A DNA stretch of 64,000 nt from the human T2T-CHM13v2.0 reference genome, Homo sapiens (GCF_009914755.1 NC_060931.1), one strand, 5' to 3'; counted from the stretch's first letter, positions 195 through 57,672 are shown. Notes: generated from the letters alone by a model not told the origin. Program-made: numbers and translations.

Positions 195-3100
195 TTTTTA
201 TTCATGTAAAGACATCATAAAAATACAAATTCAAAAACTGAGAGAAGATAAACAGAACACACATAACTAATAAAGTATTGTTAGAATATATATTAAAATG
301 TCTACAAAACAAGAAAAAGATAAAAATATAAAAATGGGCATAAGATGTAAGTGGACATTTTACTACAGATTGAAAAATCAAATGGACAATAAATATATGA
401 TTATATATTGCATTTCATCATTGATTATTGGAAGAATTAAAGAACTTGATAATATTAAATGGTGGAAAGGATGATCACAGGAAGAACTTGTACTCATTGC
501 TGATGGGAACATTAACTGGGATAATTTTTTTTTTAGAAAAGATTCATGTTACGTTCCATCGATACCTAATTTATTGAGACTTTTAAGCATGAAGGGTTGT
601 TGAATTTTGTCAAAGGCCTTTTCTGCATCTATTGAGATAATCATATGGTTTTTGTCATTGGTTCTGTTTATATGCTGGATTATGTTTATTGATTTGTGTA
701 TGTGGAACCAGCCTTGCATCCCAGGGATGAAGCCCACTTGATCATGGTGGATAAGCTTTTTGATGTGCTGCTGGATTCAGTTTGCCAGTATTTTATTGAG
801 GATTTTTGCATCAATGTTCATCAGGGATATTGGTCTAAAATTCTCTTTTTTTGTTGTGTCTCTGCCAGGCTTGGGTATCAGGATGATGCTGGCCTCATAA
901 AATGAATTAGGGAGGATTCCCTCTTTCTCTATTGGTTGGAATAGTTTCAGAAGGAATGGTACCAGCTCCTCCTTGTACCTCTGGTAGAATTCAGCTGTGA
1001 ATCCATCTGGTCCTGGACTTTTTTTGGTTGGTAAGGTATTAATTATTGCCTCAATTTCAGAGCCTGTCATTGGTCTATTCAGAGATTCAACTTCTTCCTG
1101 CTTTAGTCTTGGGAGGGTGTATGTGTTGAAGAATTTATCCATTTCTTCTAGATTTTCTAGTTTATTTGTGTAGAGGTGTTTATAGTATTCTCTGATGATA
1201 GTTTGGCTATCTATGACAAACCCACAGCCAATATCATACTGAATGGGCAAAAACTGGAAGCATTCCCTTTGAAAACTGGCACAAGACAGGGATGCCCTCT
1301 CTCACCACTCCTATTCCACACAGTGTTGGAAGTTCTGGCCAGGGTGATCAGGCAGGAGAAGGAAATAAAGGGTATTCAATTAGGAAAAGAGGAAGTCAAA
1401 TTGTCCTTGTTTGCAGATGACACGATTGTCTATCTAGAAAACCCCATTGTCTCAGCCCAAAATCTCCTTAAGCTGACAGGCAACTTCAGCAAAGTCTCAG
1501 GATACAAAATCAATGTGCAAATATCACAAGCATTCTTATACACCAATAACAGACAAACAGAGAGCCAAATCATGAGTGAACTCCCAGTCACCATTGCTTC
1601 AAAGAGAATAAAATACCTAGGAATCCAACTTACAAGGGATGTGAAGGACCTCTTCAAGGAGAACTACAAACCACTGCTCAATGAAATAAAAGAGGATACA
1701 AAGAAATGGAAGAACATTCCATGCTCATGGGTAGGAAGAATCAATATCGTGAAAATGGCCATACTGCCCAAGGTAATTTATAGATTCAATGCCATCCCCA
1801 TCAAGCTACCAATGACTTTCTTCAAAGAATTGGAAAAAACTACTTGAAAGTTCATATGGAACCAAAAAAGAGCCCACATTGCCAAGTCAATCCTAAGCCA
1901 AAAGAACAAAGCTGGAGGCATCACGCTACCTGACTTCAAACTATACTACAAGGCTACAGTAACCAAAACAGCATGGTACTGGTACCAAAACAGAGATATA
2001 AACCAATGGAACAGAACAGAGCCCTCAGAAATAATGCCACATATCTACAACCATCTGATCTTTGACAAACCTGACAAAAACAAGAAATGGGGAAAGGATT
2101 CCCTATTTAATAAATGGTGCTGGGAAAACTGGCTAGCCATATGTAGAAAGCTGAAACTGGATCCCTTCCTTGTACCTTATACAAAAATTAATTCAAGATG
2201 GATTAAAGACTGAAATGTTAGACTGAAAACCATAAAAACCCTAGAAGAAAACCTAGGCAATACCATTCAGGACATAGGCATGGGCAAGGACATCATGTCT
2301 AAAACATAAAAAGCAATGGCAACAAAAGCCAAAATTGACAAATGGGATCTAATTAAACTAAAGAGCTTCTGCACAGCAAAAGAAACTCCCATAAGATGGG
2401 ATGGGAACCTACAGAATGGGAGAAAATTTTTGCAATCTACTCATCTGACAAAGGGCTAATATCCAGAATCTACAATGAACTCAAACAAATTTACAAGAAA
2501 AAACAAACAACCCTATCAAAAAGTGGGCGAAGGATATGAACAGACACTTCTCAAAAGAAGACTTTTATGCAGCCAAAAGACACATGAAAATATGTTCATC
2601 ATCACTGGCCATCAGAGAAATGCAAATCAAAACCACAATGAGATACCATCTCACACCAGTTAGAATGGCGATCATTAAAAAGTCAGAAACAACAGGTGCT
2701 GGAGAGGATGTGGAGAAATAGGAACACTTTTACACTGTTGGTGGGACTGTCAACTAATTCAACCATTGTGGAAGACAGTGTGGTGATTCCTCAAGGATCT
2801 AGAACTAGAAATACCATTTGACCCAGCCATCCCATTACTGGGTATATACTCAAAGGATTATAAATCATGCTGCTATAAAGACACAGGCACATGTATGTTT
2901 ATAGCGGCACTATTCACAATAGCGAAGACTTGGAACCAACCCAAATGTCCAACAATGATAGACTGGATTAAGAAAATGTGGCACATATACACCATGGAAT
3001 ACTATGCAGCCATAAAAAAGGATGAGTTCATGTCCTTTGTAGGGACATGGATGAAGCTGGAAACCATCATTCTCAGCAAACTATCACAAGGACAAAAAGC

Positions 3101-3550
3101 CAAACACCGCATGTTCTTACTCATAGGTGGGAATTGAACAATGAGAACACATGGACACAGGAAGGGGAACATCACACACCGGGGCCTGTTGTGGGGTTGG
3201 GGGAGGGGGGAGGAATAGCATTAGGAGATATACCTAATGTAAATGACGAGTTAATGGGTGCAGCACACCAACATGGCACATGTATACATATGGAACAAAC
3301 CTGCACTTTGTGCACATGTACCCTAAAACTTAAAGTATAATTTAAAAAAAATGAAAAAAAATTCATGTTTTCGTGTAAGTTGAACATTTGCATATCTTGA
3401 GATCAAGAGGTATCCCACTCCTAGGTATATATACAAGAAAAATTATTTGACATGTGCACCAGGAGAGATGTACAATAATATTTATAGCACTCTACTTATA
3501 ATATGAAAAAACTGGAAACAATCCAAATTCCTATTGATAAAAGAATAGAG
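195..3550 (+). mobile_element. Ancient L1M ORF2 3' remnant, split by L1-A (pieces about 195-536 and 3370-3550)
   Basis: Degenerate ORF2 C-terminal sequence continues across the insertion (cccactcctaggtatatat...ctggaaacaatccaaa). Confidence 0.6.
551..3360 (+). mobile_element. L1-A: 5'-truncated, 5'-inverted L1PA (about PA4-5). 551-1205 is on the minus strand, 1206-3360 on the plus strand
   Basis: ORF2 peptides on both strands (549..737-, 777..1250-, 1176..1847+); 3'UTR and poly(A); TSD aaaa(g/a)attcatgtt at 537-550 and 3356-3369. Confidence 0.95.
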
Positions 3551-55952: not shown

Positions 55953-56873
55953 GGCTGCCCTTTGGTGTGTGGGCTTCACATTGTGCAGCCTCCCCTCCAC
56001 ACACACACTCGCATACATACACACACTCACACCCTTGCACACACTCACACCAACACACGCACACCTGCCCTCTCTTGCTCTGTTCCAAACTCAGTCATTA
56101 ATTTCTTCTCTCTTAAAGTGACAACTTGGAGATGAAGGAAAACCCATCCATCTTAAGTCTTCATGTCACTTAGGGCTATTCCTACGTTTTAGAGAATATG
56201 CTTTAGCTTATGTCACTTATAAATCCAAATTTGAGAGGCAACTGGTGGCCTGGTACCCTGGTGGCCTAAGAAGTCCCCGGGTACCTGGGGAGACTGAGAG
56301 GACTCAGAGGTGGGTGGGAAGGTGGCTACATCCTTGGGATTTGGCCTTCAAGGCTTTTCACTGATTTGGGTAACAAGGTGTTGGCCTCACTGCAAAGCAT
56401 AGTAGGGCAGAAAGATACGGGGCCAAGTTAGGATGTGGACTCATTCCACCACCAAGGTAGGTAAAGTTATTTTAGGCTGTGAAAGACAGACACTTCCGTG
56501 TGATTTATTTAGCAGCAGAAAGATTCCTCTCTATGAATTTTAAAGCTCCTACTCTGCCTGCTACCAGCCTGGGATTGGAGGGGAGGGCAATATACAACTG
56601 GATTCCAAATTCATTGTGCTGTAGAATACTGATTCTTTGGTATTTTCTAAGAGTTGCTTCTTTGCCTCCCCAGTACATGATCACTTTTAAAACTGTTCTA
56701 TGCATGCCAGGAAATAACTTTTAGGTGCGGCATTCCACACTTGTCCTTTACAACAACCTTCAAATATTCCTGTTCAAATCCTCTGCATCCTTAACAACTT
56801 AAATTGACTCATTATTGAAATAGATATAAAATCAGTATCACTTTAGATTTATCACATTTCCCTTCCAATTTTT

Positions 56874-57672
56874 TTTGGCAATTTCTTTTTATTATTATTA
56901 TTATTATACTTTAAGTTTTAGGGTACATGTGCAAAACGTGCAGGTTTGTTACATATGTGTACATGTGCCATGTTTGTGTGCTGCACCCATTAACTCATCA
57001 TTTAACATTAGGTTTATCGCCTAATGCTATCCCTTCCCCCTCCCTCCACCCCACAACAGTCCCCGGTGTGTGATGTTCCCCTTCCTGTGTCCATGTGTTC
57101 TCATTGTTCAATTCCCACCTATGAGTGAGAACATGCGGTGTTTGGTTTTTTGTCCTTGTGATAGTTTGCTGAGAATGATGGTTTCCAGCTTCATCCATGT
57201 CCCTACAAAGGAAATGAACTCATCGTTTTTTATGGCTGCATAGTATTCCATGGTGTATATGTGCCACATTTTCTTAATCCAGTCTATCATTGTTGGACAT
57301 TTGGGTTGGTTCCAAGTCTTTGCTATTGTGAATAGTGCTGCAATAAACATACGTGTGCATGTGTCTTTATAGCAGCATGATTTATAATCCTTTGAGTATA
57401 TACCCAGTAATGGGATGGCTGGGTCAAATGGTATTTCTAGTTCTAGATCCCTGAGGAATCACCACACCGACTTCCACAATGGTTGAACTAGTTGACAGTT
57501 CCACCAACAGTGTAAAAGTGTTCCTATTTCTCCACATCCTCTCCAGCACCTGTTGTTTCCTGACTTTTTAATGATCGCCATTCTACCTGGTGTGAGATGG
57601 TATCTCATTGTGGTTTTGATCTACATTCCTCTGATGGCCAGTGATGATGAGAATTTTTTCATGTGTTTTTTT
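56874..57672 (-). mobile_element. L1-D: 5'-truncated L1PA3/4-like 3' fragment
   Basis: ORF2 C-terminus and 3'UTR; TSD cttccaattttt at 56862-56873 and 57673-57684 at a TTTT/AA site. Confidence 0.93.

What the first reader, a model, noticed from the sequence alone, without database searches (positions are those of the whole stretch)
551..57672. The sharing extends to four L1 copies over about 55 kb
Seen: A, B and C share ELPVTIA (consensus F) and EDTKKW (consensus N). A 2740-2930 and C 42030-42220 are essentially identical at several non-consensus sites (ctgtcaactaattc, atactcaaagg, acacaggcacatg, ttatagcgg, tagcgaag). A and B share ccttgtacc (about 2170 / 38427) and gatacccaagcc (about 873 / 37128). 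All four carry ctgtcaact; D also has atactcaaagg. C and D share gtgcaaaacg and atgtgtacatg in the 3'UTR (about 41645-41680 / 56928-56965). Different pairs share different patches, in both direct and inverted orientation, so the pattern is not tree-like. Inference: a locus-wide L1 sequence-exchange network, suggesting unusually frequent local ectopic recombination.
Basis: partly seen in the sequence, partly recalled or inferred. Interest (0 to 1): 0.8.

Follow-up and report, generated by a model that had tools for sequence, protein, structure and literature searches.

The report
Neighbouring L1 copies exchanged sequence patches
Four separately inserted L1 retrotransposon copies within 57 kb of human chromosome 7 have copied short stretches of sequence from one another, a real but already known kind of repeat-to-repeat gene conversion.

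Summary
A 2686-3019 and C 42275-41942 are identical for 334 bp inside a 94.5% alignment.

Against 51 L1 copies from elsewhere, B and C share 26 variants that are rare or absent in the panel. AC and AB share 3 each, CD 2, ABC 1 and ABCD 1. The mean for 990 unrelated pairs is 0.45, maximum 10.

Whole-genome exact k-mer counts agree:
- The multi-variant B/C 40-mer, C/D 37-mer and A/C 50-mer occur only at those two copies.
- The two A/B words have 12 and 4 hits genome-wide.

Each copy has its own target-site duplication or flank, so these are independent insertions. Sharing is mosaic: B-C differ by about 1-2% in tracts and 9-12% elsewhere.

Best reading: repeated non-allelic gene conversion, mostly between the tail-to-tail inverted pair B/C (2 kb apart), with smaller exchanges linking A and D. 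"Unusually frequent" is not shown, because comparable clusters exist elsewhere. This is a new example of a known process.

The parts
1206..3360 (+). L1 copy A, 3' piece (end of ORF2, 3'UTR, A-tail)
   Evidence: 94.5% to C 43758-41605 and 92.6% to B 37467-39613. Candidate target-site duplication ATTCATGTT at 542-550 and 3361-3369.
554..1205 (-). L1 copy A, inverted 5' piece (twin-priming-like structure, junction 1205/1206)
   Evidence: Matches C 43779-44430 in the opposite orientation to the 3' piece. About 20 L1 bases are missing at the junction (C 43758 versus 43779).
2686..3019 (+). A-side of the A-C conversion tract (334 bp, exact identity)
   Evidence: In column permutations, 0 of 5000 reached 334. 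The 50-mer at 2880-2929 is exact only at A and C genome-wide: 0 hits with one mismatch, 38 with two.
41942..42275 (-). C-side of the A-C conversion tract
35838..39614 (+). L1 copy B, 5'-truncated and the oldest of the four; lies between two halves of a MADE1-like MITE (35798-35837 and 39615-39649; MITE name recalled, not tested)
   Evidence: B differs from every panel copy by at least 7.1%, against at least 4.7% for A and 5.4% for C.
41611..49943 (-). L1 copy C, full length with 5'UTR, interrupted by an SVA-like insertion
   Evidence: Exact 18-bp target-site duplication GGTCATGGTAAATTTCTT at 41593-41610 and 49944-49961. Poly-T runs to 41618. 5'UTR-like end (recognised from recall, not tested).
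37388..38009 (+). Main B-C tract, B side (C about 43840-43216). Includes the 233-bp exact run B 37777-38009 / C 43448-43216
   Evidence: 11 differences and 27 shared rare variants in about 620 bp; flanks differ by 9-12%.
38317..38692 (+). Second B-C tract, B side (C about 42904-42529)
   Evidence: 3 differences, two of which are the A/B 'GT' patch, and 9 shared rare variants in 376 bp. The 40-mer at B 38466-38505 / C 42716-42755 carries 5 shared variants and has only these two hits genome-wide, even allowing up to 2 mismatches.
36468..36894 (+). Older or weaker B-C tract, B side (C about 44760-44335)
   Evidence: 9 differences and 4 shared rare variants in 427 bp, against about 11% divergence in the 475 bp upstream.
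56874..57672 (-). L1 copy D, 0.8-kb 3' end
   Evidence: 94.4% to C and 94.6% to A. Target-site duplication CTTCCAATTTTT at 56862-56873 and 57673-57684.
56929..56965 (-). C-D shared 3'UTR patch, D side (C side 41645-41681)
   Evidence: The 37-mer with both variants has 2 exact hits genome-wide, C and D. The 82 one-mismatch hits carry at most one of the two variants.
2164..2183 (+). A-B shared 'GT' dinucleotide patch (B 38421-38440)
   Evidence: The 20-mer has 12 hits genome-wide; 2 are A and B and the other 10 are scattered.
860..891 (-). A-B shared patch in A's inverted piece (B 37113-37144)
   Evidence: The 32-mer has 4 hits genome-wide; 2 are A and B.
2739..2756 (+). Site shared by all four copies (A>C, CTGTCAACT). 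Also at B 38994, C 42205 (-), and D near 57490 (-)
   Evidence: 0 of 51 panel copies have it. The 18-mer has 244 hits genome-wide.
1571..1591 (+). Site shared by A, B and C (T>G, gives ELPVTIA)
   Evidence: 0 of 46 panel copies have it. The 21-mer has 37 hits genome-wide, 3 of them here.

Best explanation
Four L1 copies inserted independently and were later partly overwritten by one another through non-allelic (interlocus) gene conversion. In this process, breaks in one copy are repaired using a nearby homologous copy as template.

C is the hub. It received at least three tracts (about 380-620 bp) from the older, adjacent, inverted copy B. It also shares a tract of at most 334 bp with A, which lies 39 kb away in inverted orientation. 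Short patches link A-B (two patches, one in each orientation), C-D, A-B-C and all four.

Shown: independent insertion, mosaic similarity, pair-private variant combinations, and incompatible site patterns.

Inferred:
- Direction B to C. The tracts carry rare variants at B's density (about 4-10 per 100 bp), not at C's.
- Timing. Residual tract divergence of 0.3-2% against a 9-12% background suggests several events spread over roughly the last 10 million years, with A-C the most recent (0 differences in 334 bp).
- The molecular route (homologous repair, with or without associated inversion crossovers).
For: Independent insertions:
- C has an exact 18-bp target-site duplication, A and D have their own, and B sits inside a split MITE.
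- No non-L1 flank is shared.

Mosaic similarity:
- B-C differ at 4 sites in alignment columns 230-630 and at 3 in columns 930-1230, against 8-10% elsewhere.
- A-C differ at 0 sites in columns 1515-1848.

Shared rare variants:
- In the 3' 2.2 kb (51-copy panel, at most 2 carriers): BC 26, AC 3, AB 3, CD 2, ABC 1, ABCD 1.
- In the next 1.5 kb: BC 18 more.
- Null: 990 panel pairs, mean 0.45, maximum 10. The four local copies against 45 panel copies share at most 4.

Whole-genome exact counts:
- BC 40-mer: 2 of 2 hits, even allowing up to 2 mismatches.
- CD 37-mer: 2 of 2 exact.
- AC 50-mer: 2 of 2 exact and 0 at one mismatch.
- AB words: 2 of 12 and 2 of 4.

The shared changes shown (A>C, T>G, AC>GT, and the B/C five-variant block) include transversions and are not CpG decay.

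Pattern clumping: 9 switches, with 0 of 10000 shuffles as few.

Distance: an L1 150 kb upstream has no long identical run (at most 101 bp) and lacks both multi-copy variants.

Tract sizes fit the published mean of 250 bp for human non-allelic conversion (abstract of 10.1101/135152).
Against: - No orthologous sequence from another primate or another human haplotype was available. No pre-conversion state was seen, and direction and dates are inference.
- The longest-run statistic alone is not unique. 3 of 990 panel pairs have runs of 334 or more, probably within a young sublineage. B-C's 233 only just exceeds the permutation maximum of 218.
- The single-site sharings (ABCD, ABC) carry no co-converted flanking variants in B and D, and the same variants occur elsewhere (244 and 37 hits). 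Recurrent mutation cannot be excluded for those two sites.
- The panel is 51 copies taken from searches that scored only 40 of 13672-20089 candidates, so 'rare' is approximate. The exact k-mer counts are the safeguard.
- By my own reading, about six of the eleven shared changes run from A/T to G/C. That is no clear GC bias. No call tallied this.
Confidence: 0.8

Rival explanations
1. Shared source lineage. The copies descend from one minor L1 sublineage, or from a local full-length source such as C, and the shared variants were inherited at retrotransposition.
For: Sublineages do exist. Panel copies L021, L031, L036 and L037 share up to 10 rare variants and have runs up to 423 bp. The A>C variant has 244 carriers, 211 of which keep an intact 30-mer, so most carriers are young copies.
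Against: - Sharing is patchy, not element-wide: B-C differ by 1-2% in tracts and 9-12% outside.
- A-C overall (5.9%) is no closer than A to unrelated copies (minimum 4.7%).
- The multi-variant words have no other carrier in the genome.
- The copies differ in age: B differs from every panel copy by at least 7.1%, against at least 4.7% for A.
Confidence: 0.04
2. B and C are the arms of a local inverted duplication of a single L1, later diverged.
For: They lie tail to tail 2 kb apart, and C is B's best match among the 40 of 20089 candidates scored (94%).
Against: - The flanks differ. B lies inside a MADE1-like element. C has its own 18-bp target-site duplication and extends to a full 5'UTR.
- The homology stops at the L1 3' ends.
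- Divergence is bimodal, which a single duplication date cannot give.
Confidence: 0.02
3. Parallel or regionally elevated mutation at particular L1 sites produces the one-site sharings (A>C in all four copies; T>G in A, B and C).
For: - The same changes recur elsewhere on different subfamily backgrounds.
- They cluster regionally.
- In B and D the A>C site has no co-shared flanking variant.
Against: - This cannot explain the multi-variant tracts.
- Both are transversions at sites where 0 of 51 and 0 of 46 panel copies carry them.
- Four of four local copies carry A>C, while no other copy with the intact 30-mer lies on chr7 beyond 116.6 Mb. That argues for non-independent, local spread.
- At chr7:32.8 Mb the variant sits inside 262-339 bp identical runs.
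Confidence: 0.12
4. Same outcome by a different route. The tracts are by-products of homologous crossovers that inverted the intervening DNA (the B-C spacer, or the A-C 39 kb), or they were templated by RNA or cDNA from a neighbouring copy.
For: A-C and B-C are inverted repeats, the substrate for inversion by homologous recombination. One tract per pair could mark a crossover junction.
Against: B-C shows at least three separate tracts of different residual divergence. A-B and C-D are direct pairs with patches but no deletion. Nothing here shows an inversion, and no transcript evidence was examined.
Confidence: 0.1
5. Assembly or polishing artefact that copied sequence between paralogous L1s.
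For: None found. It is considered only because the identity is exact.
Against: The tracts have different residual divergences (0 to 2%). Sharing involves four elements up to 55 kb apart with unique flanks. The same kind of pattern occurs at other loci. No independent assembly was available to check.
Confidence: 0.02

Closest known systems
Non-allelic gene conversion among neighbouring Alu elements (Aleshin & Zhi 2010, seen only as cited in passages of PMC8230782 and PMC6598467)
   Same: Dispersed retrotransposon copies share non-diagnostic mutations preferentially with neighbours. Copies become mosaics.
   Different: Here the elements are L1s of 0.8-8 kb at 92-94% identity. Exchanges span 2, 15, 36 and 39 kb, whereas the cited range for Alu is about 10 kb. 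One element (C) exchanged with three partners.
Non-allelic gene conversion between gene duplicates (Harpak et al., bioRxiv 10.1101/135152, abstract read)
   Same: Tract scale (published mean 250 bp; here about 330-620 bp) and slowing as copies diverge.
   Different: The partners here are independent insertions, not duplicates. No clear GC bias is visible in the few shared changes here, by my own reading (not tallied in a call).
Arm-to-arm gene conversion in palindromes and closely spaced inverted repeats (recalled from general knowledge, no call)
   Same: B and C form a tail-to-tail inverted repeat with a 2-kb spacer and show repeated arm-to-arm tracts.
   Different: The arms are only 3.8 kb and about 90% identical outside the tracts. 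They arose by two insertions, and homogenisation is partial.
Repair of a break in a chromosomal LINE by gene conversion from endogenous LINEs (Tremblay et al. 2000, seen as cited in PMC1920257; that paper also infers an intrachromosomal conversion inside an L1)
   Same: L1 copies serve as repair templates for one another.
   Different: Those are cell-culture events or single loci. Here it is a germline-fixed, multi-event record among four natural copies.

Membership tests
Non-allelic (interlocus) gene conversion between dispersed repeats | Partners are distinct loci that arose independently (own target-site duplications or flanks) | tested here: met
   Separate target-site duplications for A, C and D. 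B lies inside a split MITE. No shared flanks.
Non-allelic (interlocus) gene conversion between dispersed repeats | Tracts of near-identity embedded in a more diverged background | tested here: met
   B-C differ by 0.8-2% in tracts and 9-12% outside. A-C show 0 differences in 334 bp against 5.9% overall.
Non-allelic (interlocus) gene conversion between dispersed repeats | Derived variants shared by the pair and absent from other family members | tested here: met
   Panel counts and genome-wide uniqueness of the 40-, 37- and 50-mers.
Non-allelic (interlocus) gene conversion between dispersed repeats | Site patterns incompatible with one tree, and spatially clustered | tested here: met
   BC 36, AC 8, AB 4 derived sites; 9 switches; 0 of 10000 shuffles as few.
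Non-allelic (interlocus) gene conversion between dispersed repeats | The orthologous locus in an outgroup shows the unconverted state | not testable with these tools
   Only this one human assembly is held (header).
L1 twin priming (structure of copy A) | 5' segment inverted relative to the 3' segment; the two are contiguous in L1 coordinates with a small gap or overlap; one target-site duplication flanks the whole | tested here: met
   Junction at 1205/1206. C-coordinates 43758 versus 43779 give a gap of about 20 bp. ATTCATGTT on both sides.
Shared L1 sublineage (common source element) | Shared variants distributed over the whole element and present in other members genome-wide | tested here: not met
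   Sharing is patchy. There are no other carriers of the multi-variant words.
Segmental or inverted duplication | Homology extends into non-repeat flanks, with uniform divergence | tested here: not met
   Homology ends at the L1 ends. Divergence is bimodal.
   No repeat library was available. Only relative ages were obtained, from divergence to the panel.

The most novel reading that the evidence does not exclude
Dispersed L1 copies undergo regional concerted evolution. Rare variants would spread horizontally among L1s of different subfamilies and ages over tens to hundreds of kb throughout the genome.

Observations that point this way:
- The A>C variant: 18 of 93 adjacent gaps among the first 100 of its 244 hits are under 100 kb. 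A scattered control variant set gives 2 of 60.
- The T>G variant clusters at chrX:53.96-54.05 Mb.
- A chr7:32.8 Mb trio has 262-339 bp identical runs.

If true, neighbourhoods acquire their own L1 'dialects', and divergence-based L1 ages and subfamily calls are locally biased. This window would be one well-resolved node of that process.
Probability: 0.3. Interest if true: 0.65.

Novelty: new member of a known kind. Interest (0 to 1): 0.4.

Why it matters
- It is a clean, multi-event record that old L1 copies only 92-94% identical still serve as repair templates for each other across 2-39 kb, in both orientations.
- Such exchange distorts age and subfamily estimates that rest on divergence. About half of C's rare variants in the 3' 2.2 kb are borrowed from B.
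- It marks inverted L1 pairs that could mediate inversions in this gene desert.
- It suggests that the neighbour-homogenisation known for Alu also applies to L1 at longer range.
- It does not point to a new mechanism or a functional element.

Tried and rejected
- Longest identical run as the only statistic: rejected as insufficient. 3 of 990 unrelated pairs reach 334 bp, and B-C's 233 barely exceeds the permutation maximum of 218.
- First panel of 35 A-like copies: it might have mistaken subfamily differences for rare variants. It was enlarged with 8 C-like and 8 B-like copies. The BC count stayed at 26.
- PRDM9 hotspot motif (13-mer, recalled): 1 match at 48741 against 1.18 expected. Uninformative.
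- GC-biased spread: the few shared changes show no clear A/T-to-G/C excess by my own reading (not tallied in a call). Dropped.
- Generality test on 20 carriers of the A>C variant from 7 regional clusters (two merged for the test). Within-region pairs share more other rare variants: 0.78 against 0.31 per pair, for 32 and 158 pairs, with 146 of 5000 label permutations as high. This is only modest support.
- Decay with distance: only one outside L1 (150 kb upstream) could be fetched. It shares 1-3 rare variants with A, B and C and has no tract.
- Aleshin & Zhi 2010 (PMC2950799) is not held.
- Five literature searches listed Alu-centred and general work. Among the papers listed there was no systematic neighbour analysis for L1. 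This does not show that none is in print.
- Search hits for whole L1 pieces score only 40 of thousands of candidates. Statements of 'best match elsewhere' from those calls are therefore weak and were replaced by exact pattern counts.
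Full report
**What is there**

The window (human T2T chr7:154442001-154506000, header) holds four L1PA-type copies that overlap in L1 coordinates.
- Copy A has a sense 3' piece at 1206-3360 (+) and an inverted 5' piece at 554-1205. The two abut in L1 coordinates with about 20 bases missing, the structure expected of twin priming.
- Copy B (about 35838-39614, +) is 5'-truncated.
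- Copy C (41611-49943, -) is full length.
- Copy D (56874-57672, -) is a 0.8-kb 3' end.

Each copy is an independent insertion.
- C is flanked by an exact 18-bp target-site duplication at 41593-41610 and 49944-49961.
- A has ATTCATGTT on both sides.
- D has CTTCCAATTTTT on both sides.
- B lies between two halves of what I recognise from memory as a MADE1-like MITE.
- No non-L1 flank is shared.

**The observation**

ELPVTIA and EDTKKW are encoded in A, B and C.

A 2740-2930 is 100% identical to C 42030-42220. The best other scored genomic match is 97%, though only 40 of 3038 candidates were scored. The exact identity runs for 334 bp (A 2686-3019 / C 42275-41942). B and C share a 233-bp exact run (B 37777-38009 / C 43448-43216).

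Overall identities are unremarkable: A-C 94.5%, B-C 93.7%, A-B 92.6%. A is no closer to C (5.9% divergence) than to unrelated copies (minimum 4.7%). Any sharing is therefore local, not element-wide.

**Is it more than chance?**

I built a panel of 51 L1 copies from elsewhere in the same genome:
- 29 full and 6 partial copies from searches with A;
- 8 best matches to C and 8 to B.

They were aligned with the four local copies (55 sequences, 2244 columns). I counted variants carried by at most 2 panel copies, in columns covered by at least 30.
- Private variants: A 32, B 55, C 28, D 15.
- Shared variants: BC 26, AC 3, AB 3, CD 2, ABC 1, ABCD 1.
- Pair by pair, with multi-copy sites counted in each pair: BC 28, AC 5, AB 5, CD 3, AD 1, BD 1.

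The null comes from 990 pairs of 45 panel copies: mean 0.45, 95th percentile 2, 99th percentile 4, maximum 10. The local copies against panel copies share at most 4. Within D's 0.8 kb, 8 of 990 null pairs reach 3.

In the next 1.5 kb upstream (24 panel copies), B and C share 18 more rare variants, AB share 1 and ABC share 1.

The run-length statistic alone is weaker.
- 3 of 990 panel pairs have runs of 334 bp or more.
- Column permutations gave 0 of 5000 for A-C (maximum 220) and 0 of 5000 for B-C, where the maximum of 218 is close to the observed 233.
- A-B's 110-bp run was reached in 139 of 5000 permutations.

**Alignment-free check**

| Word | Copies | Hits genome-wide |
|---|---|---|
| 40-mer with five shared variants | B, C | 2 (B and C), even allowing up to 2 mismatches |
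| 37-mer with both 3'UTR variants | C, D | 2 exact (C and D); 82 one-mismatch hits carry at most one of the two variants |
| 50-mer | A, C | 2 exact (A and C); 0 at one mismatch; 38 at two |
| 'GT' 20-mer | A, B | 12, two of them here |
| 32-mer in A's inverted piece | A, B | 4, two of them here |
| 21-mer with T>G (ELPVTIA) | A, B, C | 37, three of them here |
| 18-mer with A>C | A, B, C (D differs by a private change just upstream) | 244 |

For the A>C variant, 211 carriers keep an intact 30-mer. Of those, B is the only one on chr7 beyond 116.6 Mb.

So single variants are not private to the locus, but every multi-variant combination is. The shared changes displayed include transversions and a dinucleotide change, not CpG decay.

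**Mosaic structure**

B-C differences are bimodal.
- Low: 4 in alignment columns 230-630 and 3 in columns 930-1230.
- High: 8-10% in between and 10-12% toward the 3' end.

In B coordinates the tracts are:
- 37388-38009: 11 differences, 27 shared rare variants.
- 38317-38692: 3 differences, two of which are the A/B 'GT' patch; 9 shared rare variants.
- 36468-36894, a weaker and older one: 9 differences, 4 shared rare variants.

A-C differ at no site in columns 1515-1848.

Using the commonest panel base as the outgroup state, derived sites fall as BC 36, AC 8 and AB 4. These patterns are mutually incompatible with one tree. They are strongly clumped along the sequence: 9 switches, and 0 of 10000 shuffles had as few.

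**Interpretation**

The best explanation is repeated non-allelic gene conversion among independently inserted neighbours.

Direction is inferred. Inside the B-C tracts both copies depart from the panel at 7-10 sites per 100 bp. That matches B's own high load and not C's elsewhere. B differs from every panel copy by at least 7.1%, C by at least 5.4%. So B was probably the donor and C the recipient. No direction can be given for A-C.

Timing is also inference. I assume roughly 0.19% pairwise divergence per million years, scaled from human-chimpanzee divergence; this figure is recalled, not computed here.
- Tract divergences of about 2%, 1.8% and 0.3-0.8% suggest events from roughly 10 to 2-4 million years ago.
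- The A-C tract (0 differences in 334 bp) is probably younger than about 5 million years.

B and C lie tail to tail with a 2-kb spacer, an arrangement in which arm-to-arm conversion is expected. That probably explains why this pair dominates. Tract sizes fit the published mean of 250 bp for human non-allelic conversion (abstract of 10.1101/135152).

**Rivals**

- A shared source sublineage fails on three counts: the patchiness, the absence of other carriers of the combinations, and the different ages of the copies.
- An inverted duplication of one L1 is contradicted by the separate target-site duplications and by the bimodal divergence.
- Recurrent or regionally elevated mutation cannot make tracts. 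It remains possible for the two single-site sharings (ABCD, ABC), where B and D show no co-shared flanking variant.
- Inversion crossovers or RNA-templated repair are mechanistic variants that I could not test.
- An assembly artefact is unlikely given the tracts of different residual divergence, but no second assembly was available.

**Is the locus unusual?**

Not shown.
- The T>G variant also clusters at chrX:53.96-54.05 Mb (5 hits within 96 kb), chr4:162.33 Mb (2 hits) and chr7:158.64-158.70 Mb (2 hits).
- The A>C variant is regionally clustered. 18 of 93 adjacent gaps among the first 100 listed hits are under 100 kb. The scattered one-mismatch hits give 2 of 60, though hit densities differ about threefold.
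- In 20 carriers fetched from seven such clusters, copies of different subfamily backgrounds and ages share the variant within a region.
- At chr7:32.8 Mb, three L1s 30-110 kb apart share 262-339 bp identical runs spanning the site.
- Other rare variants are shared slightly more within regions than between: 0.78 against 0.31 per pair, with 146 of 5000 label permutations as high.

This suggests neighbour-to-neighbour exchange among L1s is general. An L1 150 kb upstream of the window lacks both multi-copy variants and has no long identical run with A-D. That is consistent with decay over distance, but it is a single data point.

**Comparison with what is known**

Non-allelic conversion among neighbouring Alus, within about 10 kb and falling with distance, is described in passages of PMC8230782 and PMC6598467 that cite Aleshin & Zhi 2010. 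The original paper is not held. L1 copies acting as repair templates, and an intrachromosomal conversion within an L1, are mentioned in PMC1920257 (passages).

Five literature searches listed no systematic neighbour analysis for L1 among the papers shown. That is not proof that none exists.

I therefore class this as a new, well-resolved example of a known process. It is of moderate interest for three reasons: the distances involved (up to 39 kb at 92-94% identity), the multi-partner hub structure, and the hint of a genome-wide regional effect.

Noticed in passing
window 45254-47424 (- strand), inside L1 copy C: A 2.2-kb insertion with (CCCTCT)n-type hexamers at 47378-47424, an Alu-like piece at 47089-47312, a GC-rich VNTR at 45827-46968 and a poly-T at about 45255. 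It is flanked by GTCTAAGTCTCTTT on both sides. By structure it is an SVA element (name recalled, not tested). It explains why C is 8.3 kb and why B appears to 'lack' this stretch.
   Followed up: partly
window 35798-35837 and 39615-39649: L1 copy B is inserted in the middle of an 80-bp inverted-repeat MITE that resembles MADE1 (recognised from memory). Both halves are intact around B.
   Followed up: no
genome-wide; e.g. G000:C4:96.87-97.42 Mb, C3:83.7-88.6 Mb, C4:60.9-63.0 Mb, C5:50.5-50.65 Mb: The L1 A>C variant (CTGTCAACT) has 244 carriers that are strongly clustered regionally. Within clusters it sits on different subfamily backgrounds and ages. L1 density alone seems unlikely to explain it, but this was not normalised. 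Cause unresolved: local conversion, regional mutation or something else.
   Followed up: partly
L063-L065 = G000:C7:32822464-32823381, 32852737-32853654, 32932598-32933515: Three L1 copies 30-110 kb apart share exact runs of 262-339 bp spanning the A>C site. One of them is on an older background. L063 and L064 also share 6 other rare variants. This is a second candidate exchange cluster.
   Followed up: partly
G000:C23:53957462-54053104: Five carriers of the rare T>G (ELPVTIA) L1 variant lie within 96 kb on the X chromosome, and a sixth 0.5 Mb away. Whether this is conversion or a segmental duplication was not examined.
   Followed up: no
B 37388-37454 / C about 43840-43770; B 38472-38501 / C 42749-42720: The variants shared only by B and C are locally clumped: 10 within 67 bp, 5 within 30 bp, and 3 within 5 bp at B 37550-37554. 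This is denser than single independent mutations would suggest. Possible causes are multi-nucleotide mutation events or error-prone repair synthesis. Unexplained.
   Followed up: no
panel loci L021, L031, L036, L037 (C11:90.32 Mb, C11:90.89 Mb, C1:165.59 Mb, C2:106.60 Mb): These four panel copies share 5-10 rare variants pairwise and have exact runs up to 423 bp. They look like a young minor L1 sublineage. Two of them lie 570 kb apart on chromosome 11.
   Followed up: no
window 50596-51084: An older L1 3'-end fragment, 77-79% identical to the 3' ends of A-D. It does not reach the shared sites and took no visible part in the exchanges.
   Followed up: no
L075 = G000:C7:154289900-154292300 (150 kb upstream of the window): This L1 shares one of the B/C 'private' rare variants (alignment column 1120) and two further rare variants with C. 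That is borderline against the null (95th percentile 2, 99th percentile 4).
   Followed up: partly
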